Of a stretch of 64,000 nt of DNA, positions 37,091 through 63,231 are shown one piece after another. Made by a program: the position numbers and the translations under genes. Position 1 is the stretch's first letter; every line of letters starts with the position of its first letter. Under the pieces are notes generated by a model. The model searched no databases. It was not told where the DNA came from and saw nothing but the letters and a program-made list of their open reading frames with translations. The stretch lies in the NCBI RefSeq assembly GCF_054482525.1, contig NZ_CM137006.1; one strand, written 5' to 3'.

Positions 37091-39290
<2,200 letters not shown>

Positions 39291-39302
39291 GCTTTTCATA
39301 CT

Positions 39303-39803
39303 TTATGAACGTACATCAGCAAAATGCGTCAGTAATTTTTGATTAATGTCTTTAAACAGTTCACGTTCATCATAGGTCAGAGGACTCCAGATTTCTTTCA
39401 GGTACTGGTTTTGTGTAAGGGTAATGCCCTGAATAAAGGACAGGCCTTCAGATGTCAGACTGATTTTTTTAGCACGGCGGTCCTCTTTGCTATCAGTTCT
39501 TTCTGTATATCCGGCTTTTTCTAAAAAATCTGTAATGCGGGTAATGTTTGTTCTGGTAAACTGGAGTTCTCTGCTGATCTCTGAAGGCGAAAGACAATGA
39601 TTATCTGCTGTAGATAATACGGTGAGAACCATATATGTTGAGTAATTTATTCCGTATCCTCCCAGCATTCTCGATATATTATCCTGTATTTTCTTGTTTG
39701 CACGGATACAGAGTTGTATCAAAAGATGTTCCTGACAGGGATACAGGGGATCTTTGTTTTGTTGATATTTGATTATCTTCTCTAATGAGTGTATGTTTTC
39801 CAT
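39303..39803 (-). CDS. MarR-family regulator, possibly PapX/SfaX/FocX-like
   Basis: 166 aa; winged-helix LSPSEISRELQFTRTNITRITDFLEKAGYTER; low GC; stop codon lies 1-2 bp from the IS100 end. Confidence 0.65.
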   Translation of the reverse strand: MENIHSLEKIIKYQQNKDPLYPCQEHLLIQLCIRANKKIQDNISRMLGGYGINYSTYMVLTVLSTADNHCLSPSEISRELQFTRTNITRITDFLEKAGYTERTDSKEDRRAKKISLTSEGLSFIQGITLTQNQYLKEIWSPLTYDERELFKDINQKLLTHFADVRS

Positions 39804-40603
39804 TTAATCATTTTCCATATACTGAAACATTCTGCCTTTATATAAAAGTGCATCAGTCATCCGGTAAATATCTACTTTTCACAACAATCTATGACTGCCT
39901 GATATCTGTATGAGTGAGGCGGCCCGGCAGAGAGTAAGAGCAGATTCCTTCAAATAAAAGAACATAAATGTTCATCGCTGACAAGATGGTGAAAGAATTA
40001 TTTATACTGTTAAATCAGTATAGATAATCTATCTGCCCCTGTGCTTTGTTGAACGAATCCTGACGGCCCTGAATATTCATGCAATATTATTTTATTCAGT
40101 GCACGGTAATATCCTGATTTCCATAGCATGGTGGATATGTGTATCCGGGATGGATGTTTACCAGAACCTTCTCTGTTCCAGTGTGTGGAGTTTTACAGAA
40201 GAGGCGACTGTATGCAACTCTTGCCCCGTAACTGTCTTTATTCGTTTCTCCACACTCTCCGGACATTGTAAATTCCAGATGTGTGGCAGTGTGTTTTTCG
40301 TAAATCGTACACAATGCATTTTTACACGGAGTTCAGCCAGTCGTATCACTGAGAGTTTTTTTTCTGATTTGTACCACTCATGCAGCAGTGATAAGGAGAT
40401 ATTTTCTCTGTCGGGCCAGCAGGGGCGGTGCCACCTGTTTAGTTTTCTTATGTTTGGTAAAAGAGAGGCTAAAATATATACAACAGGCGTATGTAATGAT
40501 TCATATTGTTAATCATTAACCAGTAAGAATTAATGTAGTGGATCGGTAATTCAGGACACCTCGAAATCCTGTTAATGTTAAAACAGTGAAAATGGGGTGA
40601 TGC

Positions 40604-40921
40604 ATGAGCAAAACTCGTCGGACTAAACGCACCTTTTCCCCGGAGTTCAGGCTCGAAGCTATCGAGCAAGTAGTTAAATACCAGCGCGATGTCAGAGAAG
40701 TCGCGCTGGCACTTGAGCTCAATCCTGACCATTTGCGTAAATGGATACGGTTGTATAAGCTGGAACTTCAGGGTATTGAGCCCGCTGGTAATGCCATACC
40801 CCTGAACAGCGAGAAATTCAGCAGCTTAAAAGCGCAGATAAAGCGCCTTGAGATGGAAAAAGAAATACTAAAGCAGGCTGCCGTGCTGATGAGCGAAATC
40901 CCCGGCAAGCTGTCGCGCTAA
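40604..40921 (+). CDS. IS3-family transposase OrfA (element A)
   Basis: 105 aa; HTH plus leucine-zipper-like C-terminus ...KRLEMEKEILKQAAVLMSE. Confidence 0.75.
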   Translation: MSKTRRTKRTFSPEFRLEAIEQVVKYQRDVREVALALELNPDHLRKWIRLYKLELQGIEPAGNAIPLNSEKFSSLKAQIKRLEMEKEILKQAAVLMSEIPGKLSR

Positions 40922-41040
40922 TCACACTGCTGAAAGCAAAGCGGCCAGTGCGGATTATTTGTCATTTATTCGGTGTTCACCGTAGCGTTTATTACGCGCA
41001 GGTGAAGCGTCCTGTTAATGTATCAGCGCCAATGATATAA
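40918..41040 (+). pseudogene. IS3-family OrfB 5' fragment (element A), cut by insertion of element B
   Basis: In the -1 frame after orfA; about 40 codons (…RPVRIICHLFGVHRSVYYAQVKRP…) then ends at the terminus of the inserted element. Confidence 0.5.
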
Positions 41041-41325
41041 GACAGTAATTAGGATTCGGACGATTTCCTGGACTGCTTTATTATGCCAGCCCGCATTGTT
41101 GGCGGTACATTTCAGGGATGACTGCACCCAGCGAAAATTTTATACGCCGCTCGTTATACCATCTGATGTAAGCATCCACATGCCGCATGAATTTTTCAGG
41201 CGTGATACCCAATCATTTACGCCCATAATATATTTCAGTTTTCAGTCTGCCGAAAAAGCCTTCGCATGCAGCATTATCAGGCGAGCATCCTTTACGGGAC
41301 ATTGAGCGAATAAGGCCTGCTGTAT

Positions 41326-41796
41326 TCACTCTTTCCAGCCAGGCCAGCGATAATGCCCACCTCTGTCACTGTGTATCACCGGTCGTTCGCCAGCATTTAA
41401 CGTTTCGACAGCGTTATCCAGCATAGTGTTGACCAGTTCAGCATCGGGGCGTGTACTGAGAGACCAGCTCACAACTTTTCTGTCGAAGCAGTCCACCACC
41501 GGTGATAGCCAGACTTTTCCTGCAGGAAGCTGGAACTCCGTGATATCTGTCAGCCATTTCTGATTAGGTTGCTCCGCCTTAAAATCTCTGGCGATAAGGT
41601 TATCCGGAGAAGGTCCGATTTCTCCGCAATATGAGCTGTAGCGGCGATGACGGTTACGGCTGACGACAAGCTGTTCCTCCACCATAAGTCTGCGTACAAC
41701 CTTTTCTGATAGCCGATCCCCCTCATGCCTGAGCATCGCATGCAGGCGACGATAGCCATAACACTGGTAATTACTGTTAAATATATCTGTCAGCAT
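41326..41796 (-). pseudogene. IS3-family OrfB fragment (element B)
   Basis: 156 aa covering the N-terminal and part of the catalytic region; the C-terminal region continues in another frame. Confidence 0.6.
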
Positions 41797-41904
41797 CGTA
41801 CGTATCGTGGCGTATTTATCACTGGCTTTCAGTGCAGCCCGGTGATAAAAATAACTGCTACGGGCAAGGCCCAGAACATGCAGTAATTCTGTCAGGGGAT
41901 ATGT

Positions 41905-42608
41905 TTATCTCAGGGCATCAGTAATCTTTGTTTTTTCTCTGTTGTTCAGGTGACTGATGCTGATGCCCGGGTCTTTTTTTATTATTTCCTCCGCTTTTTT
42001 CAGAATATCCAGTTCCATCTGCCGGCGGCGTATTTCCTGATTCAGTCGGGCGACTTCCTCCCGCAACGCATCGCGTTCTGCCTCCAGGGAAGGGGCGTTA
42101 TGTTTACGCATAGTCTGGTAAGCACTGTTGCCGATAATTTCATCTTTCCATTTATACAATACCGCGCGACTGACACCAATACGCCTGGCGATTTCACTGG
42201 CTGATCCTTGTCGTGTACAGAGTACCATGACAGCCTGACGTTTGACTTCTGGTTCAAAGGACGCAACCGGATTGGTCTTACTGGTAAATACACGTCGTCT
42301 GTCGGGGGAACGTTCATTAACCCAGCGAGCGAGCATATCGGTACAGGGATAACCCAGAGTCCTGCTGGTAAACGCCAGGCAGCAGCCGTGGTTAAGATAA
42401 TGTTCAACGGCAACCTGTTTTTGCTCATCGGAGTAACGGTGCTTATGACGAATGGATTCTTTTGATCCGCCACCTGCTTCCCATGAACGGATCCAACGCC
42501 GCAGATTTCTTTTCGAAGGGTAGCCCAGTTCGCGTACGACGGGGCCAGCTTCTTACCATATTTGAAATAAAGCTCAATGGTGCGAATTTTTTGTTCTTCA
42601 GTAAACAT
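41905..42608 (-). pseudogene. IS3-family OrfA, frameshifted (element B)
   Basis: Two overlapping ORFs in different frames together cover one orfA (MFTEEQKIRTIELYFKYGKK... and ...LYKWKDEIIGNSAYQ...EVARLNQEIRRRQMELDILKKAEEI). Confidence 0.6.
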
Positions 42609-42858
42609 GTTTCATCTCCTGAGAGTCCAGGAAATCGTCCGCATCCCCTAACGGTCAAAAATCGTGGCGTTGATACAGGGGAAATCCGTAGTTTTTGATG
42701 CCAGCCATAACGTGTTTGACTATAAAGTATTACGAAAGGACTTTAATGAGCCCCTGGAATAATTCATTAAAGTAATTTACTTCGCTATCCTTTTCCCAGT
42801 TACTCACAAAGAAAAATATTCATAAAATAATTCCCGGGCTGGCAGCCCGGGATGATTA

Positions 42859-44121
42859 CTATTTTAATGGATTGTTAATCTTTGCATATTCAAACGGGCT
42901 GATACATTGTTCTCTGTTCGCACCCAGAAAATCTGCCCACCACTGTAGCATCAGTCGACGTTCTTCCAGATGTTCTGCTTTATGGATATATGCAGCACGT
43001 ACACCATTACGCTCCTGATGGCTCATCTGACGTTCCACAGCATCGCGGGACCACAAACCTGATTCAATCAATGCACTGCACGCCATCGCCCGGAATCCAT
43101 GACCACAGACTTCCTGGGTTGTGTCATATCCCATCACCCTCAGGGCTTTATTTACAGTATTTTCACTGATCGGTTTACGCGGGTCATGTGCTCCCGTAAA
43201 GATCAGACCATTTTCACCAGCCCATGTCTGTAGTTCTGTCAGTATGGCTACAGCCTGTTTGCTGAGTGGCACAAGATGTGGTGTTCGCATCTTGGAGCCC
43301 CGGTGTGAGTATTTTACGCCTGGCAGAGGTTCGCGTTCGGCTGGAATAGTCCACATGGCATTGTCAATATCAATTTCAGACCAGCGGGAATATCTGAGTT
43401 CACTGGAACGAATAAAAACCAGTAAATTCAGCATAACTGCCAGTCGGGTGACAGGCTGACCTTTATAACCGTCAATACGCGACAGAAGTTCAGGCAGGCG
43501 TGAAAGATCCAGAGCAGGGCGATGCTGGCGTTTTACCGTGGTCAATGCACCAGCCATATCCAGAGCCGGGTTATATCTGATGATGCCAGACTGTACGGCA
43601 TAACGCATTACAGCAGATATTCTTTGCTGCAGACGACTGGCGATTTCATAAATTTGTTTTGCTTCTGCAGCACGAACAGGGATAAGCAGGTCCGGGGTAT
43701 TGAGTGTTGTGATATCCCGGTTGCCGATAAAGGGGAAAACGTGTGTCTCGAGGCTTTTGATTACTTTATCGCTGTGTGATTGTGCCCATTGTTTATTACT
43801 GGCATGCCAGCGTCGTGCAATATGTTCAAAAGAGAGTTGTAAATCAGGGACTACTTTTTTAGCTCTTTTTTGTTCGCAAGGGTCAATCCCCTCTGAAATC
43901 AGTTTTCGGGCCTCATCCCGTTTTGTACGAGCTTCGGAGAGAGAAACTTCTGGATATACACCAAGTGCCAGAGTCTTCTCCTTACCCAGAATACGATAAC
44001 GGAGACGCCAGTAACGGGAACCATTAGGATGAACCAGCAGGAACATGCCAGCCCCGTCAGTGAGTTTATAAGCCTTGTCAGTGTGCTTTGCAGCCCGGAT
44101 TTTTGCGTCAGTCAGTGCCAT
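42859..44121 (-). CDS. int: P4/CP4-57-type tyrosine integrase
   Basis: 420 aa; MALTDAKIRAAKHTDKAYKLTDGAGMFLLVHPNGSRYWRLRYR N-terminus; C-terminal catalytic region with R...HxxR...Y. Confidence 0.9.
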   Translation of the reverse strand: MALTDAKIRAAKHTDKAYKLTDGAGMFLLVHPNGSRYWRLRYRILGKEKTLALGVYPEVSLSEARTKRDEARKLISEGIDPCEQKRAKKVVPDLQLSFEHIARRWHASNKQWAQSHSDKVIKSLETHVFPFIGNRDITTLNTPDLLIPVRAAEAKQIYEIASRLQQRISAVMRYAVQSGIIRYNPALDMAGALTTVKRQHRPALDLSRLPELLSRIDGYKGQPVTRLAVMLNLLVFIRSSELRYSRWSEIDIDNAMWTIPAEREPLPGVKYSHRGSKMRTPHLVPLSKQAVAILTELQTWAGENGLIFTGAHDPRKPISENTVNKALRVMGYDTTQEVCGHGFRAMACSALIESGLWSRDAVERQMSHQERNGVRAAYIHKAEHLEERRLMLQWWADFLGANREQCISPFEYAKINNPLK

Positions 44122-44286
44122 AGTTCAGCCTTCTGAATGCGTTAAAGAGGGTACAAATTCTGTCGAACTGGGGTATACCCGCAATTATACCCACACAATG
44201 GGGTTGATGTGGGGGGAATCTGGTTGAGTTCGGTAGAATTGATTTGGAGGCAGAACGCTTAAATTGTGGCGTTCTGAAACGAAAAA

Positions 44287-44306
44287 CGGACCTCCGTGGA
44301 GGTCCG
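44287..44306 (-). terminator. Hairpin CGGACCTCC-GTG-GAGGTCCG followed by T-run on the minus strand
   Basis: Perfect 9-bp stem between the tRNA-like repeat and the integrase gene. Confidence 0.4.
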
Positions 44307-44318
44307 TTGATATGAATT

Positions 44319-44340
44319 TGGTGCCCGGACTCGGAATGAA
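44319..44340 (-). repeat. tRNA-Phe 3'-end-like repeat (island att-site remnant)
   Basis: TGGTGCCCGGACTCGGAAT matches the reverse complement of a tRNA-Phe 3' end, then diverges; no full tRNA. Confidence 0.55.
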
Positions 44341-44584
44341 ACTGGTTATATAACCAATTGTTTTGTATCGACTGTTTTATCCTTGTTCTTTTTGAGGCCA
44401 CCAATGAGGCCCCCATGTGCAATTCGAATTCTTTTGACGCTATAATCCCTCTTTCTTGTGGTTTGTTGTAATCATTTTGTCTGGTTCGATATGCTGAATC
44501 GCGGAATCGAAGTGACAACAAAATACAGAGATTTATAAAATACCTGGCTACCTGTGTTAGGGAGCGTTAACGCACAGATTTTGT

Positions 44585-44911
44585 TTATGGCTGCCAGAAA
44601 TGATCTGATGGTTTGTCGTCTGGCTCTGCAAGTACCCTGTTGATATCCCGGGAACCATGAACGATACGTTCGATACGAACTTCAGTATCCAGTACCCTGA
44701 ACAGCAGAAGGTAACGACCATACGAACAACCTCTGATCCCAGCCCCTAACTCGGGTCTTTCTCTGTAGAGTACTGGCGATTCGGCTATCAACAGACATTG
44801 TTGGTAAAGCTCTTCGGTAAAACTGATTGCACGGACAGGATTATCCTGAGCGATCCAGTCACCTATAGCTTCAAGATCGTGTTCTGCTAATGGTGAAACA
44901 GTCAGTTTCAT
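44585..44911 (-). CDS. parE: ParE/RelE-superfamily toxin (type II TA)
   Basis: 108 aa; 4-nt overlap with the upstream antitoxin gene. Confidence 0.75.
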   Translation of the reverse strand: MKLTVSPLAEHDLEAIGDWIAQDNPVRAISFTEELYQQCLLIAESPVLYRERPELGAGIRGCSYGRYLLLFRVLDTEVRIERIVHGSRDINRVLAEPDDKPSDHFWQP

Positions 44912-45171
44912 ATTGGCTGTTCACCTTCTGCCATCTTTTTGTATTTGTGCGTCAGTCGCCCGAATACCTCTTCAGCACTTTTACTTTCACCGCTGTTGAT
45001 GCCTGCGGCCACGGCGCTCTGGAGTGATTCAAGCTTTATCTGCTGTTCCCGTTCTTCCAGAGCACGAAGTCCGGCACGAATGACTTCACTTGTATTGTTG
45101 TACCGACCACTTTCTATTTGTTCGCGGATAAACGTTTCAAAGTAAGGACTGAGGGATACACTGGTAGGCAT
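44908..45171 (-). CDS. parD: ParD-like antitoxin (type II TA)
   Basis: 87 aa; ...SEVIRAGLRALEEREQQ... ParD-type fold signature. Confidence 0.7.
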   Translation of the reverse strand: MPTSVSLSPYFETFIREQIESGRYNNTSEVIRAGLRALEEREQQIKLESLQSAVAAGINSGESKSAEEVFGRLTHKYKKMAEGEQPI

Positions 45172-45242
45172 GGTTATTTTCTCGCCGATTGATTACTATC
45201 AATTAATAATAGTTAATATTCGCGAATTGTAAAATACCTCTT

Positions 45243-46109
45243 TTATGCCTTGCGGCTTTTGTTCACTGTGCTTGCCAGGGCTTCCGGGTAGTGTCTGGCA
45301 ATAATATCATTAAGCCTGTCAACCAGCTCTGGTTTCCTGAACGTGATGTGCGCGGAGCCCTTCTTAAAGTATCTGATGCTGAACATCTCATCTTCATAGT
45401 CCTCTTTACCCTGAACAGACTGGATGTGATCATCCAGATGAATGGTGATGTTTTCCCGGTTGTCGGGGATCGGTTTGCCGCTGAACAGGTGCAGCATTCT
45501 TTCCAGATCGGCAAGTCGATCGGCCTGTTGTCCGGTGATAAGATGAAACCCCCACCGGTCCCACCTCACCAGATTGTTGACGATAATTTTACTGCCAAAT
45601 TTGCAGGGTGAATTGGTTTTGTAATTCCAGCTCAGTCCTCTGAAAACGTTGAGCACCCCTCGCTCAAACACTTCATCTTTGTTCTGGTGCAGTTGTTCAA
45701 ACGTGCTCAGGATATTTGCTTCGCTGATTTCCGGAAAATTATCGTACTCCAGTGACCGGTACCATGTATCACGGGCTTGTGCATCCATTAATGACAGCAT
45801 CCCTGAACGTTGCATCAGATCACGCCAGATTTCGCGGTCAAGGTTGCGGGTGATGGCTTTCATTGCGGTTTCCGGTTTTTCCATCAGCCAGCAACCGCAG
45901 CGAAAATCCTGTTTCATGGCCCAGTCCAGTGCAGTTTTACCTCCGATGCTTTCCGTCAGCACCGAGATTTCTGCCAGTTGCCGGATAAGTGTGTCGATTT
46001 GCAGCAGCGCACTCTTTCGTACAGCCAGAATGTGGCGGATGCTGGTTGAGCCGATAACGTCCGTATGCCCGTTGACCACTTCCGGACGGGGGGCTGTGAT
46101 TTCAGACAT
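45243..46109 (-). CDS. Conserved island protein, probably DUF4942 family (copy 2)
   Basis: 288 aa; paralog of 17326-18168. Confidence 0.6.
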   Translation of the reverse strand: MSEITAPRPEVVNGHTDVIGSTSIRHILAVRKSALLQIDTLIRQLAEISVLTESIGGKTALDWAMKQDFRCGCWLMEKPETAMKAITRNLDREIWRDLMQRSGMLSLMDAQARDTWYRSLEYDNFPEISEANILSTFEQLHQNKDEVFERGVLNVFRGLSWNYKTNSPCKFGSKIIVNNLVRWDRWGFHLITGQQADRLADLERMLHLFSGKPIPDNRENITIHLDDHIQSVQGKEDYEDEMFSIRYFKKGSAHITFRKPELVDRLNDIIARHYPEALASTVNKSRKA

Positions 46110-46193
46110 AATCGATATTCCTTTTTGCAGATAAATGAAAACGCCAGCCCTGTTCAGGCTGGCGTCAGTGGAATGAAGTCTGGTGAGTAAGAC

Positions 46194-46391
46194 TCACCGG
46201 TTCTGTTGCAGAAGCTGCAACTGGCGCAGGATACGGATATCCTCCCTGGCCTGTTCGATACAGGGCAACAGTGCTGCCGAATCCGTTCTATCCTCATCGT
46301 TGTCAAAGATAATTCCCGATTCGCAGTCGATATTGTCCTGTAGCCACGCAATCAGAATATCCAGTGCGGTTTCCGTGGTTAATGATTTCAT
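46194..46391 (-). CDS. Small conserved protein downstream of yeeW-like gene (copy 2)
   Basis: Paralog of 18253-18450; start at ATG 46391, 11 nt after the yeeW-like stop. Confidence 0.5.
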   Translation of the reverse strand: MKSLTTETALDILIAWLQDNIDCESGIIFDNDEDRTDSAALLPCIEQAREDIRILRQLQLLQQNR

Positions 46392-46402
46392 GTTGTTCCT
46401 GG

Positions 46403-46894
46403 TTACCAGTCGAAAGTGGGCAGGTCCGGCAGACATTCAGCGCTGGCATCCAGATGAATGAGACTGACGCCATAACGTCGGGTAAGTGTGACAACCAGAC
46501 GACGGAACGTTTTTGACAGGCCCAGGCGCTTAAGCCGCAGAACCGGGTATGACCACGCATCGGTACGTAACAGATATCCGCTACCTGTGAAATGAATCCA
46601 TTCTGATTCGCCGGTGCCATTCGTCTGATGTGACAGCGAGTACAGCCAGGCGTTGTCCTTTGCCGTGATATGCGCGGTACTGCAGCGTATGCCGGTAAGG
46701 GCCGCCGCAGATGATGGCGTGCGCTCTGCTGATGTCCGGTCAGATTCATCAACAACACGAAGGGAGTAACCGTTATCGCAGACCACGTTAATCAGTTCAG
46801 CGAGAGTAACACCATCGACGTCAACGACAATGCGCCCCATGTTCAGTGCCTGCACGTTAATGCTGTCGGCTTCCAGCGTCAGGGCCAGTTTCAT
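46403..46894 (-). CDS. yeeW: YeeW-like protein, full length (copy 2)
   Basis: 163 aa; intact counterpart of the truncated copy at 18462-18950. Confidence 0.65.
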   Translation of the reverse strand: MKLALTLEADSINVQALNMGRIVVDVDGVTLAELINVVCDNGYSLRVVDESDRTSAERTPSSAAALTGIRCSTAHITAKDNAWLYSLSHQTNGTGESEWIHFTGSGYLLRTDAWSYPVLRLKRLGLSKTFRRLVVTLTRRYGVSLIHLDASAECLPDLPTFDW

Positions 46895-47268
46895 TGTTTC
46901 GCCCCCGGATGTTTACCCAGGGTAATGTTATTTACCGTTCTGTAATTGTCGCGGGCCATCAGGCCGGTTGCCCGGCGGGCCCGGAGGATATCAATACTGT
47001 TTATTAACTGAGAACGGGTACAGGCGCTGAATCCTGGCTGGTCGGTACGTACCAGTGCGTATTTTTCAACGAGAAAGTTCACCGCATCGCACAGTGAAAT
47101 GCCTGCCTCAATATGCTGCTCAATCACACGTTCATCAGCGAACGGTGTGTCATTCAGTGTGAGGCCGTAATGCTGGTCCAACAGTCGGGTGAGCAGTGTC
47201 TGCCAGATGGTGACGGGAGACGGGCAGCGCGATGCCTCCCGTACGTGTGTGTCAGGTAATGTTTTCAT
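46891..47268 (-). CDS. cbtA: CbtA/YeeV-family toxin (copy 2)
   Basis: Start at MKTLPDTHV (47268); the track ORF extends upstream to 47370. Confidence 0.85.
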   Translation of the reverse strand: MKTLPDTHVREASRCPSPVTIWQTLLTRLLDQHYGLTLNDTPFADERVIEQHIEAGISLCDAVNFLVEKYALVRTDQPGFSACTRSQLINSIDILRARRATGLMARDNYRTVNNITLGKHPGAKQ

Positions 47269-47314
47269 CTTAAGTTCTCTGTAACTGGTAGTGCTAAAGG
47301 TGAGATATTCGGGG

Positions 47315-47689
47315 TTATGAGGTGGTTGCGGGTGCCAGTGTCGGATAAACAGCCATATAAACGTAACCACAACTGCTGAGGGTATCGGCTTTGCAGGTCA
47401 GCCCTTTTGCATACAGCGTGACGGTATGCTGATGGCGGGGATTCAGTTCACCGCTGGTGAGCATGAGTTCCAGTTGTTTCATCAGCAGCGGAAAGGCCTG
47501 GTCCAGATGGTACGCATCCGCGTCGCTGAACCGGCCTCTGATACCGGCGCGGTCTGCAAGGTAATGCAACCGGTTACCCTCCTGCACCAGACGTGCCCCA
47601 AAACAGGGCGTCACGGTGCAGGGTAGCCCCCACCAGGGGCGGTCGTTGTTATCGTCGGGATGCGTTGTCCCGGGGAGAGTGTCTGACAC
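47315..47689 (-). CDS. cbeA: CbeA/YeeU-family antitoxin (copy 2, intact frame)
   Basis: 124 aa, [42 protein letters not shown]...; GTG start. Confidence 0.8.
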   Translation of the reverse strand: MSDTLPGTTHPDDNNDRPWWGLPCTVTPCFGARLVQEGNRLHYLADRAGIRGRFSDADAYHLDQAFPLLMKQLELMLTSGELNPRHQHTVTLYAKGLTCKADTLSSCGYVYMAVYPTLAPATTS

Positions 47690-47768
47690 GATAAAATCCT
47701 CACAGAAAATTGGTTAAGAATGGTCCGGTGGTGGCGATAATTCTGCTCTTCTGAATGCCCTTCCAGAC

Positions 47769-47990
47769 TCAGTTCAGGGTGACGCTCATCAGCCGGACAT
47801 ACGGGCCAAAACTGTCCTTACGGCGTTCAGCAAACACGGCCAGCACACCGGGAATATCCTGCACTTCACGACCGGTATACGCTTCAGCACTGCCGTGCCA
47901 GCGGTATTTGCCGGTACAGAACGGAAAAAGACGGGATGCCGGATGCTGACGGTGAATACGCATGGCTTCGCCACGGGTGATGATTTTCAT
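47769..47990 (-). CDS. yeeT: DUF987/YeeT-like protein (copy 2)
   Basis: 73 aa paralog. Confidence 0.7.
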   Translation of the reverse strand: MKIITRGEAMRIHRQHPASRLFPFCTGKYRWHGSAEAYTGREVQDIPGVLAVFAERRKDSFGPYVRLMSVTLN

Positions 47991-48058
47991 AGTGGGATAC
48001 CTCTGAAGACAGAAGATAAAAGTGAAAACAGGTGTGATATGGTTGTGGCGGTGACGGG

Positions 48059-48550
48059 TTAAAGCAGACCGTGTTCCGCAAAGGAGAAAACCTGGTTGCC
48101 ACCAACTATCAGATGGTCCGGTACCCGGATATCCACCAGGGCCAGTGCCTGTACCAGGCGTTCCGTGATAAGGCGATCTGCCTTACTGGGGGTGACTTCA
48201 CCGGACGGGTGGTTGTGTGCCAGTATCACGGCAGCGGCATTGTGGTACAGGGCACGTTTAATTACCTCCCGGGGATGGACTTCCGTGCGGTTGATGGTGC
48301 CTGTGAAGAGGGTTTCACCGGCAATCAGCTGATTCTGGTTGTTCAGATACAGTACCCGGAACTCTTCCCGCTCCAGTCCCGCCATGTTCAGAATCAGCCA
48401 TTCCCGTGCCGCATGCGTGGAGGTGAAGGCCACACCGGGTTCATGAAGATGGCGGTCCAGGGTTTTCAGGGCCCGCAGAATGAGGCTGCGCTCGCCGGGC
48501 GTCATCTCTCCGGGCAGAAAGGAAAGCTGTTGCATTGTGCTTCTCTCCAT
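48059..48550 (-). CDS. yeeS: RadC-like JAB-domain protein (copy 2)
   Basis: 163 aa; HNHPSGEVTPSKAD. Confidence 0.85.
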   Translation of the reverse strand: MERSTMQQLSFLPGEMTPGERSLILRALKTLDRHLHEPGVAFTSTHAAREWLILNMAGLEREEFRVLYLNNQNQLIAGETLFTGTINRTEVHPREVIKRALYHNAAAVILAHNHPSGEVTPSKADRLITERLVQALALVDIRVPDHLIVGGNQVFSFAEHGLL

Positions 48551-49036
48551 TCAGTCGATGATGCGCATAATGGCGTTGCATTCCGGATGCTGCAGGGCGT
48601 AATCCCGCAACCGATAATAATGGACCGTCATGGCATAATTCTCTGTACGACAGGCGTGATGACTGTACGCCATCAGACAGGCGGCAATGCCGGCGGCTTC
48701 CGGGCTCATTTCAGCGCGGTTGCCGTTCATGGCATTGAACAGTACCCATGTTTCGTCATCATCGTCATCCGGTTCGGGTACCATAAATGCCCCACCGTTG
48801 TTCAGGGTGTACAGATTCCAGATACCACCGCAGTAGTCTTCGCAAAGACGGTCCATCCAGCCGAAGACACGGGGCTCCAGGGTCACCCACTGTGGAATGA
48901 GGCCAAAATGTTGCGGCCAGAAACTGATGCGCTGTTCATCAGGGACGGGAGTGGCAACCAGTTGAGACTGGTTATTCCCTGGTGCAGTGGTTACGGAAAC
49001 AGAAGGCGTGGTGGAGCTATGCGAAAAGGTTGTCAT
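48551..49036 (-). CDS. Antirestriction protein (KlcA/ArdB-like, copy 2)
   Basis: 161 aa paralog. Confidence 0.8.
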   Translation of the reverse strand: MTTFSHSSTTPSVSVTTAPGNNQSQLVATPVPDEQRISFWPQHFGLIPQWVTLEPRVFGWMDRLCEDYCGGIWNLYTLNNGGAFMVPEPDDDDDETWVLFNAMNGNRAEMSPEAAGIAACLMAYSHHACRTENYAMTVHYYRLRDYALQHPECNAIMRIID

Positions 49037-49127
49037 GAGATGATTCCTTATAAAAAGTAAATGAATGGAAGAATGCCCGGGGACTGGTACAGACGTGAGT
49101 CAGGGTTGCACTTTCAGGGAAACAGCA

Positions 49128-49946
49128 TCAGCGCATGCTCTCCAGCAGCGTTTCTGCCATCACCCACAATGCGCGATTGAGCTTAATGTCCGTGTCGATG
49201 CTGTGAATGGCACGGGTGTGGATACGTTTTCCTTTAGCGCTGCGACCAGAAATCCCGCCTTTCAGCATATTTTCCTGGATGGTCTGATAAGCACTCCACA
49301 GGTCCTTACCGTAATCCTCCCGGCGTCGTGGCGTCAGAATGTCGGCGGTGGTGACGGGCTGATGTTCGTCACCATAACGGTAAGTCAGTGCCGCCTGTGC
49401 CAGCGCCTGGCGTGCCGGTGGCGGCAGGACCAGCGACTGCATGGCATCACGCTTTTCCTCAATCCGGTCAAAAACGCCCACCACTTCGTAAGCCCCTTCA
49501 ATGACTCTGTCCACCACATTTCCCCGGTGCGGAACACGCACTTCCCCCAGAGACTGACCACAGACGCAGCCGTTCTGGCAGACGAACCTGAAGTAACCCG
49601 GCAGCATCTGGTAGCTGGAGGTACCGTCATGGGAGTTCAGCAGGATGATTTCAGGGACATGTTGTCCGTTTATCTCCCCGTCACGGCGCAGACGCAGCAT
49701 GTGTTTGGTATACCCCCGGCGGCCCGGGTCACGTACGCGGGTCTGGCAGGCAAAGAAGGGCTGAAAGCCTTCCCGCTGCAGGCTTTCCAGCACGGTGATG
49801 GTGGGGATCCAGGTATAGTTCTCGCTTCTGGATGTGTGCTTATCTTCCCCGAATACGCTGGGGACGACCTGCATCAGTTCTTCGCGAGTTAAGGGGCGGT
49901 CACGGCGTATCTGGTTCGCATAACCAAAACGACTTGCTAATCGCAT
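49128..49946 (-). CDS. DUF932-family protein (copy 2)
   Basis: 272 aa paralog. Confidence 0.7.
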   Translation of the reverse strand: MRLASRFGYANQIRRDRPLTREELMQVVPSVFGEDKHTSRSENYTWIPTITVLESLQREGFQPFFACQTRVRDPGRRGYTKHMLRLRRDGEINGQHVPEIILLNSHDGTSSYQMLPGYFRFVCQNGCVCGQSLGEVRVPHRGNVVDRVIEGAYEVVGVFDRIEEKRDAMQSLVLPPPARQALAQAALTYRYGDEHQPVTTADILTPRRREDYGKDLWSAYQTIQENMLKGGISGRSAKGKRIHTRAIHSIDTDIKLNRALWVMAETLLESMR

Positions 49947-50036
49947 GATTTGCTCCTTATGAATGAGTTAGCGATATAAATGAAAAAGCCGCGCCTCCCG
50001 GAGAAGACGCGGCCTGATGGATGAAATGAATGACGT

Positions 50037-50246
50037 TTATTGTCTGAGAAGCCCTTCACTGGCGAGCCACACATTAAGCTGTTTTCCGGCATCGGATTCA
50101 AAATTCCAGTACCGCCAGCGCAACTGACCTTCAGCATTACGGATAACCAGCCGGAAATGCGTTCCCTGGTCATCTTCAATAAGCACATTGCGGTAAGCTG
50201 TTGTGACGGCAACCGCCTGTTCGCGTGAGAAAGGGCCTTCGGGCAA
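50037..50246 (-). CDS. DUF905-family small protein (copy 2)
   Basis: 69 aa paralog. Confidence 0.6.
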
Positions 50247-50275
50247 TTAAACAGGGTGACAGTCCGACATACCGG

Positions 50276-50953
50276 CTATTTTCCGATAAATTCAACGCTG
50301 GCACCGGTGGCATTACCGTCAGCACCAACCGTGACGGTCACTTTGTCGTACGCACGGTCTTCAGGATTGAACACTTCAAACTCAACCTTATTGCCTTTTA
50401 CTTCGTAAGAGCCAAAATCAGCGGTTTCTGTTGTTTCCTCGTCATATTCCCGGGCGTATGCCAGCCGGGCAGCCTGCAGGACGGAATCTTTATTAATGGC
50501 GGGTGTCTGTTTCGGGGAAAAACCGGCAAGTGATGTGACAAATTTCGGACAGACCTTCAGCATATCACCGCGGGTGAATTCCATTCGTACACCAAATGCC
50601 TGTAAAACGGACACATCACGCTCTGCTATGGAGTGAACGGCTTTTTTGACCATTTCCGGCGCCTGTCCGACTTCCACCTCAACAGCCCTGAATCCTGTCT
50701 GCTGATTACACATTTGTGATGTGGGGATCAGGTTACCGTTAATACTGATACGGCTGCCCAGGAGCGTCTGTACGCCATTCGGGCATCCCTGCATCAGGCC
50801 GGTAATACCAATCGTGCCATTTTTCAGCATTACCAGCGCCTGACCATCTTCCGTCATGGTCTGACACCAGCCGTTTTTGACAGCCCAGTTACCGGCGGAG
50901 GTGGAGAAGGATGCCACAGTGAACAGCAGGGGAAAAAGCATTCTGGTATTCAT
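50276..50953 (-). CDS. Secreted or periplasmic protein of unknown function (occupies the Ag43 slot in module 2)
   Basis: 225 aa; signal peptide MNTRMLFPLLFTVASFSTSAGN; several Cys. Confidence 0.6.
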   Translation of the reverse strand: MNTRMLFPLLFTVASFSTSAGNWAVKNGWCQTMTEDGQALVMLKNGTIGITGLMQGCPNGVQTLLGSRISINGNLIPTSQMCNQQTGFRAVEVEVGQAPEMVKKAVHSIAERDVSVLQAFGVRMEFTRGDMLKVCPKFVTSLAGFSPKQTPAINKDSVLQAARLAYAREYDEETTETADFGSYEVKGNKVEFEVFNPEDRAYDKVTVTVGADGNATGASVEFIGK

Positions 50954-51071
50954 GACTGACCTCTGAAATTAAAGAGCGTGTTATTGATAATGACAGACGG
51001 TATACGGCAGTGGTTACCGTAATCCGTTGTCGTGTAAAGGTATACGGTTGCCACGGGGGACTCCGGGGCGC

Positions 51072-51956
51072 TCAGAACAGGTGATCCCACAGTGTGACCA
51101 GTAGGTGGATAATGCGGGCCCGGGCTTTACGCAGAAGCTGTAACATCCAGGCCGGAAAACTGAACCGGGCAACGGCGTCGTCAAAACTTTTCCCGATGGC
51201 GTCACCAAAAGTCTGTTGTGCGTGTTTCCGGGCCTGTTCAGAGCGGTTTTCCCCCCGGATATGTGAATAAACCGCGCTGGTTGCCTGTGGTGGCAGTGCG
51301 TGGATCATCAGTGACACCAGTGCCGGAAGATTCCAGCCGACAGGCGCTGCAACGGAGAGTACCGGAAATGATGACGGGAACAGGGTGGCCACCCGGGCTG
51401 TTACTGTCGCCAGTGAGAGTTCCTGCTGACGGGACGGGCATTTTTCTGCGTCGTTCCATTCTTCAGCAGGAAACACGCGATCGGCATGGCTGAGAACAAA
51501 CAGAAAACGCGAGGGATCTGCACCTTCATTCAGTAAAAACTGATGCATGGCAATATCAGCAGCATACGCACGTTCATCAGCCCGCAGGATCCAGATAATC
51601 AGATCCAGTTCCGGCAGTAACTGACGGTAAAGCTCCCGGTATTCCTGATCATGCTGCGGTGTTTCACCAATGCCGGGCAGATCGACCAGCGTCATTCTGC
51701 GTTCACCAATCTGCAGGGTGAGGCGATGAGCCTGGCGGGTGCAGCCGTTCAGGGGATGCGTGGCGCAGATACGGGACTGAAAAATGGCATTACACAGACT
51801 GCTTTTGCCGGTGCCGGATTTACCCATAATGCCAATCACGGGCTCGTAATGAATAACACCGTGGAGATGTTCAAGGATTTTCTGGCGAATTTCTTCAGGA
51901 AGAAACGTCAGATATGATTTCACTTGTGCGGAGAGGGAAGAATGGCTGAATGACAT
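51072..51956 (-). CDS. YeeP/YfjP/YkfA-family GTPase (copy 2)
   Basis: 294 aa; P-loop GIMGKSGTGKSSLCNAIF, DLPGIG. Confidence 0.85.
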   Translation of the reverse strand: MSFSHSSLSAQVKSYLTFLPEEIRQKILEHLHGVIHYEPVIGIMGKSGTGKSSLCNAIFQSRICATHPLNGCTRQAHRLTLQIGERRMTLVDLPGIGETPQHDQEYRELYRQLLPELDLIIWILRADERAYAADIAMHQFLLNEGADPSRFLFVLSHADRVFPAEEWNDAEKCPSRQQELSLATVTARVATLFPSSFPVLSVAAPVGWNLPALVSLMIHALPPQATSAVYSHIRGENRSEQARKHAQQTFGDAIGKSFDDAVARFSFPAWMLQLLRKARARIIHLLVTLWDHLF

Positions 51957-52062
51957 ACCGGTATCCTGTTGATTTCACTGAACCGGATCACACTAATCCG
52001 GTTTATCATTCAGGTAATATGGGCGTGAAAAAATCTGGAGTGACAAAGTGTGGAGGGAAGAG

Positions 52063-52995
52063 ATGACTGCACAACAGATTGATGCATTACGCGACATTGT
52101 TAATAAGGCCAGAGTTACCGCCATTTGTAAAAGTCCGGCCTGGAAATATACTCTGCGAATACTGAAGCGCAGCAGACTCGTGTACAGAGGAGAACGGTCA
52201 GAATCGTTTGATCCGGAGAAACATTTTAATCGTTATACGGTGCGTTATCTGTACCTGCTTAACATAATGGCACTTGAGCTAAAGTCAGATACACGGATTA
52301 AGGTTGAGGTAGGTCAATGGTATCGCATGACGGGTAAACGTTTATCACTTAATGTCCCGCCTTTTATGCTGATTCCGCGTAATATCCGGAGAAAAGTGGA
52401 TGGATTCAGACAATCAGAAGGCGAAGCAACAAAACAAACGGCTCAACCGTTCACGGGCAGTTTGTATGAGGTTTTGAGCAGGGATAACGATTCGGCTGAG
52501 CTGGACGCCTGGTTTGCTGAACCACCGCTGACACGACAGGAAGTGCGGGAGGGGAGGCGTGTCACAGATTTTAATCCATGGGCGCAGTCTTCGTTTATTT
52601 GCCGTTCAGCATCCCCGACGTTTGAACTTTTTTACCAGGAATATAAGCGACTGGGATTAAGTGTTTTTTTTGATCCGGAAAATAGAAAACCTTTTGAAAG
52701 TATAAAAAAACATTTCGGGGATAAACCACAGTTACTGGAGAGACTGGGGGATGTGTTGTTTTTCACGTCGCTTTATAACCAGGGATGTTTAGGGGAGTTT
52801 GTCAATGCGCTTGTGGAAAAGGAGGACATTTATCTGAAAGCGTCCCCCGGGGAAGAAAAGCTGAAAGCACACCAGAAAATGATTAACTACATTGAAGAGT
52901 TCTGCAACAAAATGACGGAAAAGTATCTGATATCCGCAGCCAGGAGACACTACCAAAAGAAGAAAATCGGCAGGAGCAGAAGTGGTGAAAGTTAA
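52063..52995 (+). CDS. Hypothetical protein A (unknown function)
   Basis: ATG 52063 behind GGAGGG; 310 aa; no recognised motif; divergent from the GTPase gene. Confidence 0.55.
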   Translation: MTAQQIDALRDIVNKARVTAICKSPAWKYTLRILKRSRLVYRGERSESFDPEKHFNRYTVRYLYLLNIMALELKSDTRIKVEVGQWYRMTGKRLSLNVPPFMLIPRNIRRKVDGFRQSEGEATKQTAQPFTGSLYEVLSRDNDSAELDAWFAEPPLTRQEVREGRRVTDFNPWAQSSFICRSASPTFELFYQEYKRLGLSVFFDPENRKPFESIKKHFGDKPQLLERLGDVLFFTSLYNQGCLGEFVNALVEKEDIYLKASPGEEKLKAHQKMINYIEEFCNKMTEKYLISAARRHYQKKKIGRSRSGES

Positions 52996-53822
52996 TACAG
53001 TCTGTGGTTCTGAATCACCAGCCTGTGGTTCTGAATCAGATGTTCCAGGACAGCCTGTTGTGTTGTTTTCAGTTCTCTGGTCAGTCTGTCCAGAGTACGT
53101 TTTGCATCTGATGATATTTTAACGTTGATTTGTACCCGCTTATCTTTTTTTCCGTCGGTAAACTGTTTTCGGAATGCATTGTGCATCTTGTCGAAAAATT
53201 TTTCTTTTGCGGCAACCCCATAGTGAAGTACTTTTGGCTGCTGTAAGTATGGTGTATCTGCGGGGAATAAAATTTTTAGTAAAACTACGATAGCAATGTA
53301 TCTTTCGTTATCACTTACAGGATAAAACCAGGAAAGATACGTGTGCGGGATGCGTGCATTGATATATTTCCATGCCCATTCGAGTTGTTCTGTATTCTTT
53401 TTAAGCCATTTGGCTTCGTTTCTCTTTTCGATCTGCAGCCAGTTTTGATGCATTGTTGAGATGAAGCAATCTGATTGATTGTCAAGGATTAATGCATTAA
53501 TCCATTTGCTTATAACATCCAGTCTCATTTCATGATCTGAAGGAATTGTTGTTATGGGTATACTCCCCGCAGGAATCAGCCCCATCATGGCTGTATTGAA
53601 CCCTAATTCATTACGAACCCCAAGGAGTTTGGGATCTGTGTTAATTATAACTAACCAGAACCAGAATGCTGCAATTTCATTTTTTTTAACCCATTCAGGT
53701 ATGTGATTATCTGTCAGTTGTTTATCATTCAACAAATACTCAATTGTTTCATTTTCCCAGCTATATCCATTCACGTTATAACCATCTTCATATTGTTTCA
53801 TCTGATTACGCCTCAATCGCAT
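52992..53822 (-). CDS. Hypothetical protein B (unknown function) with C-terminal ribbon-helix-helix-like segment
   Basis: Low-GC ORF; C-terminus ...VKISSDAKRTLDRLTRELKTTQQAVLEHLIQNH; alternative starts at 53801 or 53915; 3' end overlaps gene A by 4 nt. Confidence 0.5.
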   Translation of the reverse strand: MRLRRNQMKQYEDGYNVNGYSWENETIEYLLNDKQLTDNHIPEWVKKNEIAAFWFWLVIINTDPKLLGVRNELGFNTAMMGLIPAGSIPITTIPSDHEMRLDVISKWINALILDNQSDCFISTMHQNWLQIEKRNEAKWLKKNTEQLEWAWKYINARIPHTYLSWFYPVSDNERYIAIVVLLKILFPADTPYLQQPKVLHYGVAAKEKFFDKMHNAFRKQFTDGKKDKRVQINVKISSDAKRTLDRLTRELKTTQQAVLEHLIQNHRLVIQNHRLY

Positions 53823-54494
53823 TCTCTTCTGGTGATTTTCACTATCACATGGAAATCGAATATGCAAGGAAGTTAACAAAAAAACATTGCATCCGGACTT
53901 GTGTTCAAAAAGCAATCACTTCAAGGCTTGATCACTCTGTGAGATGCTGAAGAACTATTCTCTAACTATTCACGATCTATTCTTGATCTATTCATAATAA
54001 ATTAAAACATGCTATCAACTACTGCTCATATCCTCCTTGGGTGTGTCGTTGTACTGTTCGACTGTTCTTGTGGTCAGATTAACAATCTGAAGAGTAAAAG
54101 CGACAGTAATCTGTCTGTTATAGTGGCGATAAAAACACTGAATGCGCATCCTGTATGTGAAATCCTGTCATGTGGAGCAGTAAGCAATGACAGGCATGCA
54201 TGTTATATGTGAAGGGGGCCGGGAGACGACATAATCAGTATGGCTGTCATTCTGGTTGTAAAACGCGATCACTTTCCGGGGGTAAAAGATGATATGGAAG
54301 CTGACAAACGGTTTGCTTCGGATTGTCTTTTCTGGGGCCTGAAATACGGGGACAGAAAAATAATTCCAGAGTAAATCTGCTCCGTTTTCAGAACAAAAAT
54401 CCCCATGCTGGCCGTGAAAAACTGAAACGAACATTCAGTCTGCATGAGTGTCTGAAGATGTTGAGAATGTCGGTATGATACTATATACACATGT

Positions 54495-54700
54495 TTTTAT
54501 TAAGTGTTATATACATATCTTTTTAAATAGATAATTCTACACATATTTTACTAAGTGTTTTTACTAAGCATTTCAGTAAGTGTTATACACGTATTTTCTA
54601 CTAAGTGTTTTACCAGACATACACATGTTTTCATAAACAATTCTACAAGTGTTTTCATTAAGTATTGTTATACACATTGCTTTGTCTGATACACATCCAG
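54495..54700. repeat. Iteron-like array of TAAGTGTT / ATACAC motifs
   Basis: At least five (C)TAAGTGTT copies at about 22-25-bp spacing, interleaved with ATACAC; inside a 1.6-kb ORF-poor region between hypothetical B and the Gp2-like gene at 55552. Confidence 0.5.
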
Positions 54701-55506: not shown

Positions 55507-55544
55507 GATTAATGATGTGAAGTCAATCCAAATCAACGGAGATC
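55507..55544 (+). promoter_or_regulatory. Conserved ~35-40-bp element GATTAATGATGTGAA...CAACGGAGATC (copy 1)
   Basis: Near-identical core to 61295-61327; ends 8 bp before the Gp2-like gene start at 55552. Confidence 0.4.
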
Positions 55545-55551
55545 TCTCATC

Positions 55552-56283: not shown

Positions 56284-56392
56284 GCCCTGTAAAACGGCAT
56301 CCGGTGCCTGAGCATACGTCACGTAATTAACTGTCTTGACCAACAAAATTATGGAGTAACCTGATGGCAGGATTCATTACATTTCTTTGTTC

Positions 56393-57034
<642 letters not shown>

Positions 57035-57051
57035 TATTGCCCATTCTTGCT

Positions 57052-57094
<43 letters not shown>

Positions 57095-59072: not shown

Positions 59073-59092
59073 AATAACCTTACACAGATAAA

Positions 59093-59116
59093 ACAAAATC
59101 AACCAACCTTCATTCG
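59093..59116 (+). terminator. Hairpin CCAACCTTC-ATTC-GGAGGTTGG downstream of the DUF3987 gene
   Basis: Stem-loop 20 bp after the stop; weak T-tract. Confidence 0.3.
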
Positions 59117-61235: not shown

Positions 61236-61294
61236 AGCTTAAGGCCTGAGCCTCCGCTCCTGGAAACACTCCGTCGGTAAAAATCTACCGCCCT

Positions 61295-63213: not shown

Positions 63214-63231
63214 ATCAGCGCAGTTGTGCAG

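What the first reader, a model, noticed from the sequence alone, without database searches (positions are those of the whole stretch)
40540..42657. Nested IS3-family elements: one inserted into the orfB of another
Element A (orfA 40604-40921) has its orfB cut after about 40 codons at 41040, exactly where element B begins. Element B is defined by inverted repeats at 41041-41074 and 42624-42657 and has its own orfA and orfB in pieces. The 3' remainder of element A is absent, implying a later deletion.
Basis: seen in the sequence. Interest (0 to 1): 0.3.

Follow-up and report, generated by a model that had tools for sequence, protein, structure and literature searches.

The report
Dead IS3 elements abutting in island
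This is ordinary mobile-element debris in an E. coli tRNA-Phe genomic island: a full-length but mutated IS3-family insertion sequence sits against the cut-off front 39% of a second IS3-family element, and nothing about it is biologically unusual.

Summary

- **Element A:** It starts at 40534, not 40540. It matches other copies only up to 41021, so 488 of about 1,255 bp are retained.
- **Element B:** It is a complete copy of a 1,661-bp IS3-family element. Intact copies elsewhere (five examined, mostly ETEC-type diarrhoeal isolates) have 53/54-bp inverted repeats, TG..CA ends, 4-bp target duplications and one 510-aa transposase ORF. Here it spans 41019-42677, not 41041-42657.
- **State of B:** It is dead, with two frameshifts and two nonsense codons. 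It has no target duplication.
- **Right flank of B:** It is not element A. It is the last 87 nt of a 1,674-nt phosphoethanolamine-transferase gene, followed by a P4-type integrase and a tRNA-Phe att remnant.

B therefore joins two unrelated sequences, which needs at least one further rearrangement. This could be recombination between two B copies or an adjacent deletion. Whether B ever transposed into A cannot be decided.

The identical arrangement occurs in about 35 of 5,426 complete E. coli genomes, and no intermediates were found. ISfinder names could not be obtained. Interest is low.

The parts
40534..41021 (+). Element A: 5' 39% of a roughly 1,253-1,257-bp IS3-family insertion sequence (left inverted repeat, orfA, start of orfB). 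Bases 41019-41021 (TGT) are shared with B's tip, so the true cut lies between 41018 and 41021.
   Evidence: It is 93-94% identical to positions 1-488/491 of full-length copies L008 and L010, and to the truncated copy L002 over the same stretch. All comparators continue ...AATGTGCAAAGAATTG where the window switches to B. PGAP annotates the matching CDS as 40604-41022, 'transposase, frameshifted, missing C-terminus'.
40534..40560 (+). Left terminal inverted repeat of A (TGTAGTGGATCGGTAATTCAGGACACC).
   Evidence: Homology among five copies with unrelated left flanks begins here. The right ends of full copies read TGTAGTGGATCACAAAATCAGGACACC in reverse complement.
40604..40921 (+). A orfA (105 aa; HTH_Tnp_1). 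The frame is open but damaged: a 1-bp deletion and a 1-bp insertion about 30 nt apart scramble roughly 11 codons relative to the other copies.
   Evidence: ORF list; Pfam and NCBIfam matches; alignment A1, columns 267 and 299.
40852..41021 (+). Retained start of A's orfB (-1 frame). The frame opens at 40852, and an A AAA G motif at 40858-40862 is the likely frameshift site. About 55 codons are retained.
   Evidence: Frame analysis. Calling A AAA G the slippery site is an inference by analogy with IS3, from memory.
41019..42677 (-). Element B: complete-length (1,659 bp) but inactivated copy of a 1,661-bp IS3-family insertion sequence. The minimal extent is 41021-42675 if the outer TG and CA belong to the flanks.
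   Evidence: It aligns end to end with the intact reference L015:1499-3159 (79 mismatches, about 95% identity). Other intact copies confirm the termini and 4-bp target duplications.
41019..41074 (.). B terminal inverted repeat at the transposase C-terminal side (TGTATCAGCGCCAATGATATAAGACAGTAATTAGGATTCGGACGATTTCCTGGACT).
   Evidence: It matches the 54-bp tip of intact copies (TGTCAGCGCCAATGATATAAGACAGTAATGGGGATGCGGACGATTTCCTGGACT), which is flanked by target duplications. It is 44/56 identical to the other arm.
42624..42677 (.). B terminal inverted repeat at the transposase N-terminal side (reverse complement TGTATCAACGCCACGATTTTTGACCGTTAGGGGATGCGGACGATTTCCTGGACT).
   Evidence: It matches the 53-bp tip of intact copies. 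A 34-bp solo remnant elsewhere (L016) is identical over 42642-42673 and then ends ...TTGACA. The transferase homology starts at 42676.
41081..42608 (-). B transposase pseudogene (the reference is one 510-aa ORF with two HTH regions plus HTH_21, rve and rve_2 domains). Lesions: 1-bp deletion near 42544, nonsense codon at 41905-41907, 4-bp deletion near 41343, nonsense codon at 41210-41212.
   Evidence: ORF fragments; nucleotide alignment to the intact copy; domain matches, with NCBIfam transpos_IS3 at 363.6 bits against a cut-off of 160. PGAP note: 'frameshifted; internal stop'.
42676..42762 (+). Last 87 nt of a 1,674-nt phosphoethanolamine-transferase gene (3' remnant), directly abutting B.
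   Evidence: It matches nt 1588-1674 of the intact gene in L005. PGAP annotates a fragment at 42673-42762.
42859..44121 (-). P4-type tyrosine integrase of the island (context).
   Evidence: ORF; PGAP annotation.
44319..44337 (-). 19-nt 3' end of tRNA-Phe (att-type repeat) marking the end of this island (context). No complete tRNA gene is present in the window.
   Evidence: Comparison with the full tRNA-Phe of L001; ARAGORN finds no tRNA in the window.

Best explanation
The region is a fossil junction of two unrelated IS3-family insertion sequences inside an E. coli tRNA-Phe (pheV/pheU) genomic island.

Element A is a roughly 1.25-kb element. Only its first 488 bp survive (40534-41021).

Element B is 41019-42677. 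It is a full-length copy of a 1,661-bp element that is still mobile in other E. coli (intact copies examined came mostly from ETEC-type diarrhoeal isolates). It has 53/54-bp terminal repeats, TG..CA ends, 4-bp target duplications and a single 510-aa DDE transposase.

Both copies here are dead. B has two frameshifts and two nonsense codons. A's orfA carries compensating frameshifts, and about 60% of A is missing.

B's two flanks come from different DNA. On the left is A's orfB. On the right are the last 87 nt of a phosphoethanolamine-transferase gene that normally lies beside the island's integrase. There is no target-site duplication.

The arrangement therefore needed one transposition of B plus a second event anchored exactly at a B terminus. 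That event was either homologous recombination between two directly oriented B copies (one in A, one in the transferase gene) or a B-mediated adjacent deletion. It removed the rest of A, about 1.6 kb of the transferase gene and whatever lay between them.

Shown: the identities, the termini, the lesions and the mismatched flanks. Inferred: which deletion mechanism acted and in what order the events occurred.
For: - **Termini of B:** They are fixed by intact copies. L006 interrupts IS100 istB with a CAGC duplication. L011, L013 and L015 have CATG, AAGG and ACAT duplications.
- **Intact reference of B:** 1,661 bp with one 510-aa ORF.
- **Window copy of B:** It aligns end to end at about 95% identity with four inactivating lesions.
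- **Termini and length of A:** Taken from L008, L009 and L010. A's homology ends at 41021 in all four comparators.
- **Right flank of B:** It equals nt 1588-1674 of an intact transferase gene next to the same integrase type.
- **Nothing else nearby:** There are no other A, B or transferase pieces in the window.
- **Family membership:** NCBIfam transpos_IS3 at 363.6 bits for B's catalytic part; rve, rve_2 and HTH_21 domains; HTH_Tnp_1 for both N-termini.
- **Distribution:** The identical module is present in 34-36 complete genomes.
- **Precedent:** Deletion by recombination between paired IS copies is documented on the Shigella virulence plasmid (PMC5629016).
Against: - No intermediate was found in complete E. 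coli genomes: neither B with both halves of A, nor B with both halves of the transferase gene. The second event and its mechanism are therefore inferred only.
- The window copy differs from every other copy at both tips in the same way (TGTATCA instead of TGTCA). Either the tips carry a symmetric 2-bp insertion, or position 2 is mutated at both ends and the outer TG/CA belong to the flanks. Neither is explained, and it leaves a 2-3-bp uncertainty at each boundary.
- ISfinder names could not be obtained.
Confidence: 0.88

Rival explanations
1. B transposed into the orfB of an intact A at about 41018-41021. Later a deletion starting exactly at B's right terminus removed A's remainder and everything up to nt 1587 of the transferase gene. 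This includes the variant in which a second B copy in the transferase gene recombined with the one in A.
For: - A is cut precisely at a B terminus.
- B-type elements do land inside other insertion sequences: IS100 istB in L006 and an IS66-type element in L011/L012.
- IS-pair recombination deletions are documented.
Against: There is no target duplication, no A remainder in the window, and no genome with B flanked on both sides by A.
Confidence: 0.5
2. B never inserted into A. B transposed into the phosphoethanolamine-transferase gene. A leftward deletion anchored at B's left terminus then ended by chance inside A's orfB.
For: - The B/transferase junction sits in the conserved integrase-transferase backbone of tRNA-Phe islands.
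- It persists in a strain (L017) where an IS1 has removed the A side.
- The transferase sequence resumes exactly at 42676.
Against: No genome shows the 5' part of the transferase gene to the left of B. L017 is explained by a later IS1 event and is not an intermediate.
Confidence: 0.35
3. A and B are parts of one composite or single longer element (the refutation condition the first reader named).
For: They are always adjacent in the 34 genomes that carry this exact module.
Against: - A occurs alone as a roughly 1.25-kb unit with its own inverted repeats in the pap, hly and other contexts.
- B occurs alone with its own repeats and target duplications in at least five unrelated contexts.
- The 34 genomes share the module at about 100% identity, so they represent one inherited event.
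Confidence: 0.01
4. The inverted repeat is a chance match and B is only a transposase pseudogene without defined ends.
For: The outer 30 nt of the two arms are only moderately alike.
Against: Each arm separately matches the corresponding arm of intact copies over its full length. Those copies are bounded by 4-bp duplications of uninterrupted target sequence.
Confidence: 0.01

Closest known systems
IS3 family insertion sequences (ISfinder family; e.g. IS3, IS911, IS150)
   Same: Both elements share the family hallmarks:
- an HTH_Tnp_1 N-terminal region;
- a DDE (rve) catalytic region in B, and in full-length A copies according to PGAP;
- TG..CA termini and terminal inverted repeats;
- 4-bp target duplications (B);
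- an A-rich frameshift window at the orfA/orfB boundary;
- a length of 1.25 kb for A.
   Different: - B is long for the family (1,661 bp).
- B has unusually long 53/54-bp repeats and a duplicated N-terminal HTH region.
- In most intact copies of B the transposase is one continuous 510-aa ORF through an A8 tract rather than two frames. L006 has the two-frame form.
- Neither element could be given an ISfinder name here. PGAP gives only 'IS3 family transposase'.
IS-pair recombination and IS-mediated adjacent deletions in virulence islands and plasmids (e.g. Shigella pINV, PMC5629016)
   Same: An insertion sequence with intact ends but no target duplication joins two sequences that were not originally neighbours.
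   Different: Here the event is ancient and fixed. Both elements are mutated and the module is inherited in about 35 genomes. The partner copy or intermediate is not available, so the mechanism is inferred.
tRNA-Phe (pheV/pheU) genomic islands of E. coli with a P4-type integrase
   Same: The integrase lies next to a tRNA-Phe att site with a phosphoethanolamine-transferase gene beside it. IS100, IS66 and IS3 debris is present. The malX and citrate-lyase cargo seen in collinear strains was not located in this window itself.
   Different: In this window the island is followed by only a 19-nt tRNA-Phe remnant and then a second CP4-like island. The transferase gene is reduced to 87 nt.

Membership tests
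IS3 family (element B) | DDE transposase with rve catalytic core matching the family model | tested here: met
   The intact homologue (L004 catalytic part) scores 363.6 bits on NCBIfam NF033516 transpos_IS3 (cut-off 160). It also matches Pfam rve, rve_2, rve_3 and HTH_21. The window copy is about 95% identical in DNA.
IS3 family (element B) | Terminal inverted repeats ending 5'-TG...CA-3' | tested here: met
   Intact copies read TGTCA(G/A)CGCC...TGACA. The window copy reads TGTATCA... at both ends if the maximal boundaries are taken. The alternative reading gives TA...TA.
IS3 family (element B) | Short (3-4 bp) target-site duplication | tested here: met
   Intact copies show 4-bp duplications of CAGC, CATG, AAGG and ACAT. 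The window copy has none: TTAA versus GGGG, or AATG versus CAGG.
IS3 family (element B) | Two overlapping ORFs (orfA, orfB) joined by programmed -1 frameshifting | tested here: inconclusive
   Most intact copies have a single 510-aa ORF running through an A8 tract. One copy (L006) has a 1-bp deletion right after that tract, giving a two-frame form that PGAP calls a programmed frameshift. Frameshifting itself cannot be tested here.
IS3 family (element A) | OrfA with HTH_Tnp_1 DNA-binding domain followed by -1-frame orfB | tested here: met
   Pfam HTH_Tnp_1 at 2.5e-14; NCBIfam transpos_IS3 positions 1-85 (44.6 bits, partial). The -1 frame opens at 40852 across an A AAA G motif.
IS3 family (element A) | DDE catalytic domain in orfB | not tested
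   It is absent from the window because A is truncated at 41021. Full-length copies L008-L010 are annotated 'IS3 family transposase' by PGAP, but I did not scan their orfB myself.
IS3 family (element A) | Terminal inverted repeats TG...CA and length 1.2-1.5 kb | tested here: met
   Full copies are 1,253-1,257 bp. Their ends read TGTAGTGGATCGGTAATTCAGGACACC and TGTAGTGGATCACAAAATCAGGACACC in reverse complement. Only the left repeat is present in the window.
Nested insertion (B transposed into A) | The interrupted element's two halves flank the inserted element, with a target-site duplication | tested here: not met
   The right flank of B is a phosphoethanolamine-transferase remnant, not A. There is no A remainder in the window and no duplication. 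An original nested insertion followed by deletion remains possible but is not demonstrated.

The most novel reading that the evidence does not exclude
The window's B copy differs from all other examined copies by the same 2-base change at both termini (TGTATCA versus TGTCA). A same-lineage solo tip elsewhere (L016) has the standard end. The most novel reading is that both terminal dinucleotides were changed in concert: either position 2 mutated at both ends, giving non-cleavable TA...TA ends, or a symmetric 2-bp insertion. This would hint at some coupling between the two ends, such as gene conversion between the inverted repeats or an aberrant circle-junction resolution. The tip-swapped copy in L006 likewise suggests that the 25-bp perfect inner repeats recombine and flip the element's interior.
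Probability: 0.15. Interest if true: 0.2.

Novelty: already known. Interest (0 to 1): 0.07.

Why it matters
It matters little. The result corrects the anatomy of a small piece of IS debris: A is 40534-41021, B is 41019-42677, and an 87-nt transferase remnant follows B. It also shows that a full-length insertion sequence without a target duplication marks a deletion or recombination scar in a tRNA-Phe island. That is useful for annotating and reconstructing the history of this island type, which occurs at pheV or pheU in about 35 complete E. coli genomes. It reveals no new kind of element or mechanism.

Tried and rejected
- **Naming the elements:** No ISfinder access was available.
  - NCBIfam and PGAP give only 'IS3 family'.
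  - Cluster names give only 'IS3 family transposase' for B, and one unverified 'IS602 transposase' label for A's OrfA.
  - PLSDB annotations add nothing.
  - ISSfl4 was considered for B and rejected because it is about 2.6 kb.
  - A paper search on papX, papG and IS3 was unhelpful.
- **Searching for intermediates:** None was found, neither B inside intact A nor B inside the intact transferase gene. Queries of the whole region and of each junction against 5,426 complete E. coli genomes found only the same module or unrelated contexts.
- **Searching for the window-specific tip:** The exact pattern TATCAGCGCCAATGATATAAGAC gave 0 hits in species-representative genomes.
- **The common B-like copy:** It matches only 41052-42653 and is present in about 800 genomes. 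It looked at first like the true extent of B, but it is a tip-less relic; the one copy examined (L003) lies next to sat.
- **The 730-bp stretch left of A (39804-40533):** It has no Pfam matches in its ORFs and occurs only in the same 34 genomes.
Full report
**What the window is.** The region 37337-44340 is about 100% identical to chromosomal segments of several complete E. coli genomes. There it is annotated, left to right, as:

- IS100 istB/istA;
- a MarR-family regulator;
- 'transposase, frameshifted, missing C-terminus' (40604-41022);
- 'IS3 family transposase, frameshifted, internal stop' (41081-42608, minus strand);
- 'phosphoethanolamine transferase, missing N-terminus' (42673-42762);
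- a tyrosine integrase (42859-44121);
- tRNA-Phe.

In different strains this module sits at pheU (dicD/dsbD/cutA side) or at pheV (yqgA/speC side). In the window itself only the 19-nt 3' end of tRNA-Phe is present (44319-44337). A second CP4-like island follows, as in strain 746.

**Checking the observation.** The ORF 40604-40921 exists and is an IS3-type OrfA. It matches Pfam HTH_Tnp_1 at 2.5e-14 and the N-terminal 85 positions of NCBIfam transpos_IS3. An inverted repeat brackets the minus-strand transposase fragments. The repeat finder gives arms 41052-41074 and 42624-42646, 23 nt and 96% complementary. So two IS3-family elements do lie side by side.

**Element B: true ends.** Most E. coli matches to B cover only 41052-42653. 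The one such copy I examined (L003) is a tip-less relic next to sat.

Other copies extend further. The decisive one is L006, where an intact copy interrupts IS100 istB. Comparison with the uninterrupted IS100 in the window shows the target CTCACTCAGCTTCATAG. It has become ...CTCACTCAGC|TGTCAACGCC...GGCGCTGACA|CAGCTTCATAG. That gives TG...CA ends and a 4-bp duplication, CAGC.

Three further contexts give duplications CATG, AAGG (in umuC) and ACAT. The reference element (L015:1499-3159) is 1,661 bp with terminal repeats of 54 and 53 nt and one 510-aa ORF.

The window copy aligns to it end to end: 1,659 bp, 79 mismatches, about 95% identity. Its arms are 41019-41074 and 42624-42677, identical at 44 of 56 aligned positions.

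Independent support comes from the right flank. Homology to an intact phosphoethanolamine-transferase gene begins at 42676. A solo remnant of the same tip lineage in another genome is identical over 42642-42673 and then ends ...GTTGACA.

So B is 41019-42677, not 41041-42657.

**Element B: coding state.** Relative to the intact ORF, the window copy has:

- a 1-bp deletion near 42544;
- a nonsense codon at 41905-41907;
- a 4-bp deletion near 41343;
- a nonsense codon at 41210-41212.

The catalytic part of an intact homologue scores 363.6 bits on NCBIfam transpos_IS3 (cut-off 160). It carries HTH_21, rve and rve_2 domains, and the N-terminus has two HTH regions.

Intact copies mostly have one continuous ORF through an A8 tract, where IS3 elements usually frameshift. 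One copy (L006) has a 1-bp deletion there, giving a two-frame arrangement. 'orfA and orfB in pieces' is therefore only approximately right.

**Element A.** Four other copies in unrelated contexts were compared: between papG and papX, upstream of hlyC on a plasmid, in UM146, and next to dcuS. They share the left end TGTAGTGGATCGGTAATTCAGGACACC, which in the window starts at 40534. Full copies are 1,253-1,257 bp, with a matching right repeat.

All four comparators continue ...CCTGTTAATGTGCAAAGAATTG. The window reads ...CCTGTTAATGTATCAGCGCC, so A's homology ends at 41021. The window therefore keeps 488 bp, or 39% of A.

About 55 codons of that frame are retained, or 33 after the orfA stop. Calling this motif the frameshift site is my inference by analogy with IS3, from memory.

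A's orfA is itself damaged. A 1-bp deletion and a 1-bp insertion scramble roughly 11 codons relative to the other copies.

**What lies to the right of B.** It is not A. Positions 42676-42762 correspond to nt 1588-1674 of a 1,674-nt phosphoethanolamine-transferase gene. That gene is intact next to the same kind of integrase in another tRNA-Phe island (L005). A BLAST of full-length A, B and the transferase gene against the whole window finds no other pieces.

**How it arose.** B has both ends but no target duplication. The flanks are TTAA versus GGGG, or AATG versus CAGG with the minimal boundaries. The flanks are also unrelated to each other. One transposition cannot produce that. A second event anchored exactly at a B terminus is required. 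Three histories fit:

1. B inserted into A, then a rightward deletion ran from B's right end into the transferase gene.
2. B inserted into the transferase gene, then a leftward deletion ran from B's left end into A.
3. Two B copies, one in each target, recombined.

IS-pair recombination causing deletions is well documented, for example on the Shigella virulence plasmid.

I looked for intermediates in 5,426 complete E. coli genomes with the whole region and with each junction. The A-B junction occurs in 34 genomes and the B-transferase junction in 36. One extra strain is explained by a later IS1 deletion within B. No genome shows either half-step, so the order of events is unresolved. I give histories that include a true insertion into A about 0.5, the pure-deletion history about 0.35, and the remainder to other possibilities.

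**Residual boundary ambiguity.** Every other copy starts TGTCA(G/A)CGCC, but the window copy reads TGTATCA(G/A)CGCC at both ends.

- One reading is that the tips carry a symmetric 2-bp insertion, giving B = 41019-42677.
- The other is that the tips are TATCA..., with position 2 mutated at both ends, and the outer TG and CA belong to the flanks, giving B = 41021-42675.

The native A sequence (...AATGTG...) and the native transferase sequence (...GGCAGGG...) both fit the second reading. The exact tip was not found in any other context. I could not resolve this. It changes the boundaries by 2-3 bp only.

**Comparison with the known.** Both elements meet the tested IS3-family criteria; the membership table lists them. 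They occur in hundreds of sequenced genomes annotated as IS3-family transposases. Truncated or abutting insertion sequences are routine in E. coli genomic islands. I could not assign ISfinder names.

**Verdict.** This is a real feature with corrected boundaries. The nested-insertion reading is partly supported, the feature is of an already known kind, and interest is low.

Noticed in passing
window 39303-39803 (- strand) and 39804-40533: The 'MarR family regulator' left of element A is 73% identical to PapX, the regulator at the end of the pap fimbrial operon. In another genome (L008) a full copy of element A lies between papG and papX. The 730 bp between this gene and A has no annotated feature and no Pfam match, and occurs only in the same 34 genomes. 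It may be a remnant of a fimbrial operon.
   Followed up: partly
window 37337-39290 (IS100): The IS100 copy is a rearrangement breakpoint. The window is collinear with strain 746 and others only to the right of 37337. To the left, the window carries sequence that lies about 28 kb away in strain 746.
   Followed up: partly
window 44319-44337 and 44341-64000: Only the 19-nt 3' end of tRNA-Phe is present and ARAGORN finds no tRNA. A RelE/ParE-ParD pair (44585-45171) and a second CP4-like island (CbtA/YeeU, RadC, antirestriction) follow. This is a tandem island array. The same integrase-transferase remnant-B-A module sits at pheV in some strains and at pheU in another.
   Followed up: partly
L006:1460-3120 (NZ_CM128601.1): In this intact B copy inside IS100 istB, the two outer roughly 28-nt tips are swapped relative to the interior when compared with all other copies. 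This would result from inversion by recombination between the element's own perfect 25-bp inner inverted repeats.
   Followed up: no
L014, right end of the B copy (about 3160-3190): The flank contains a tandem duplicate of the outer 23 nt of B's terminal repeat (TGTCAACGCCAAGATTATTGGCC) directly next to the real tip.
   Followed up: no
L016:2501-2534 (NZ_CP033378.1): A solo 34-bp remnant of B's right tip lies about 100 bp downstream of a group II intron reverse-transcriptase gene (ltrA). It is identical to the window over 32 bp but has the standard ...TTGACA end.
   Followed up: no
window 41019-41025 and 42671-42677: Both tips of the window's B copy differ from all other copies by the same two bases (TGTATCA versus TGTCA). 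This symmetric change is unexplained.
   Followed up: partly
L015:1499-3159 and related loci L011-L014: The B-type element has 2-5 matching places per replicon in the ETEC-type strains and plasmids listed (for example B7A and O6:H16 strains). It encodes one 510-aa transposase through an A8 tract instead of the usual two-frame IS3 arrangement. A copy with a 1-bp deletion after that tract (L006) restores a two-frame form.
   Followed up: partly
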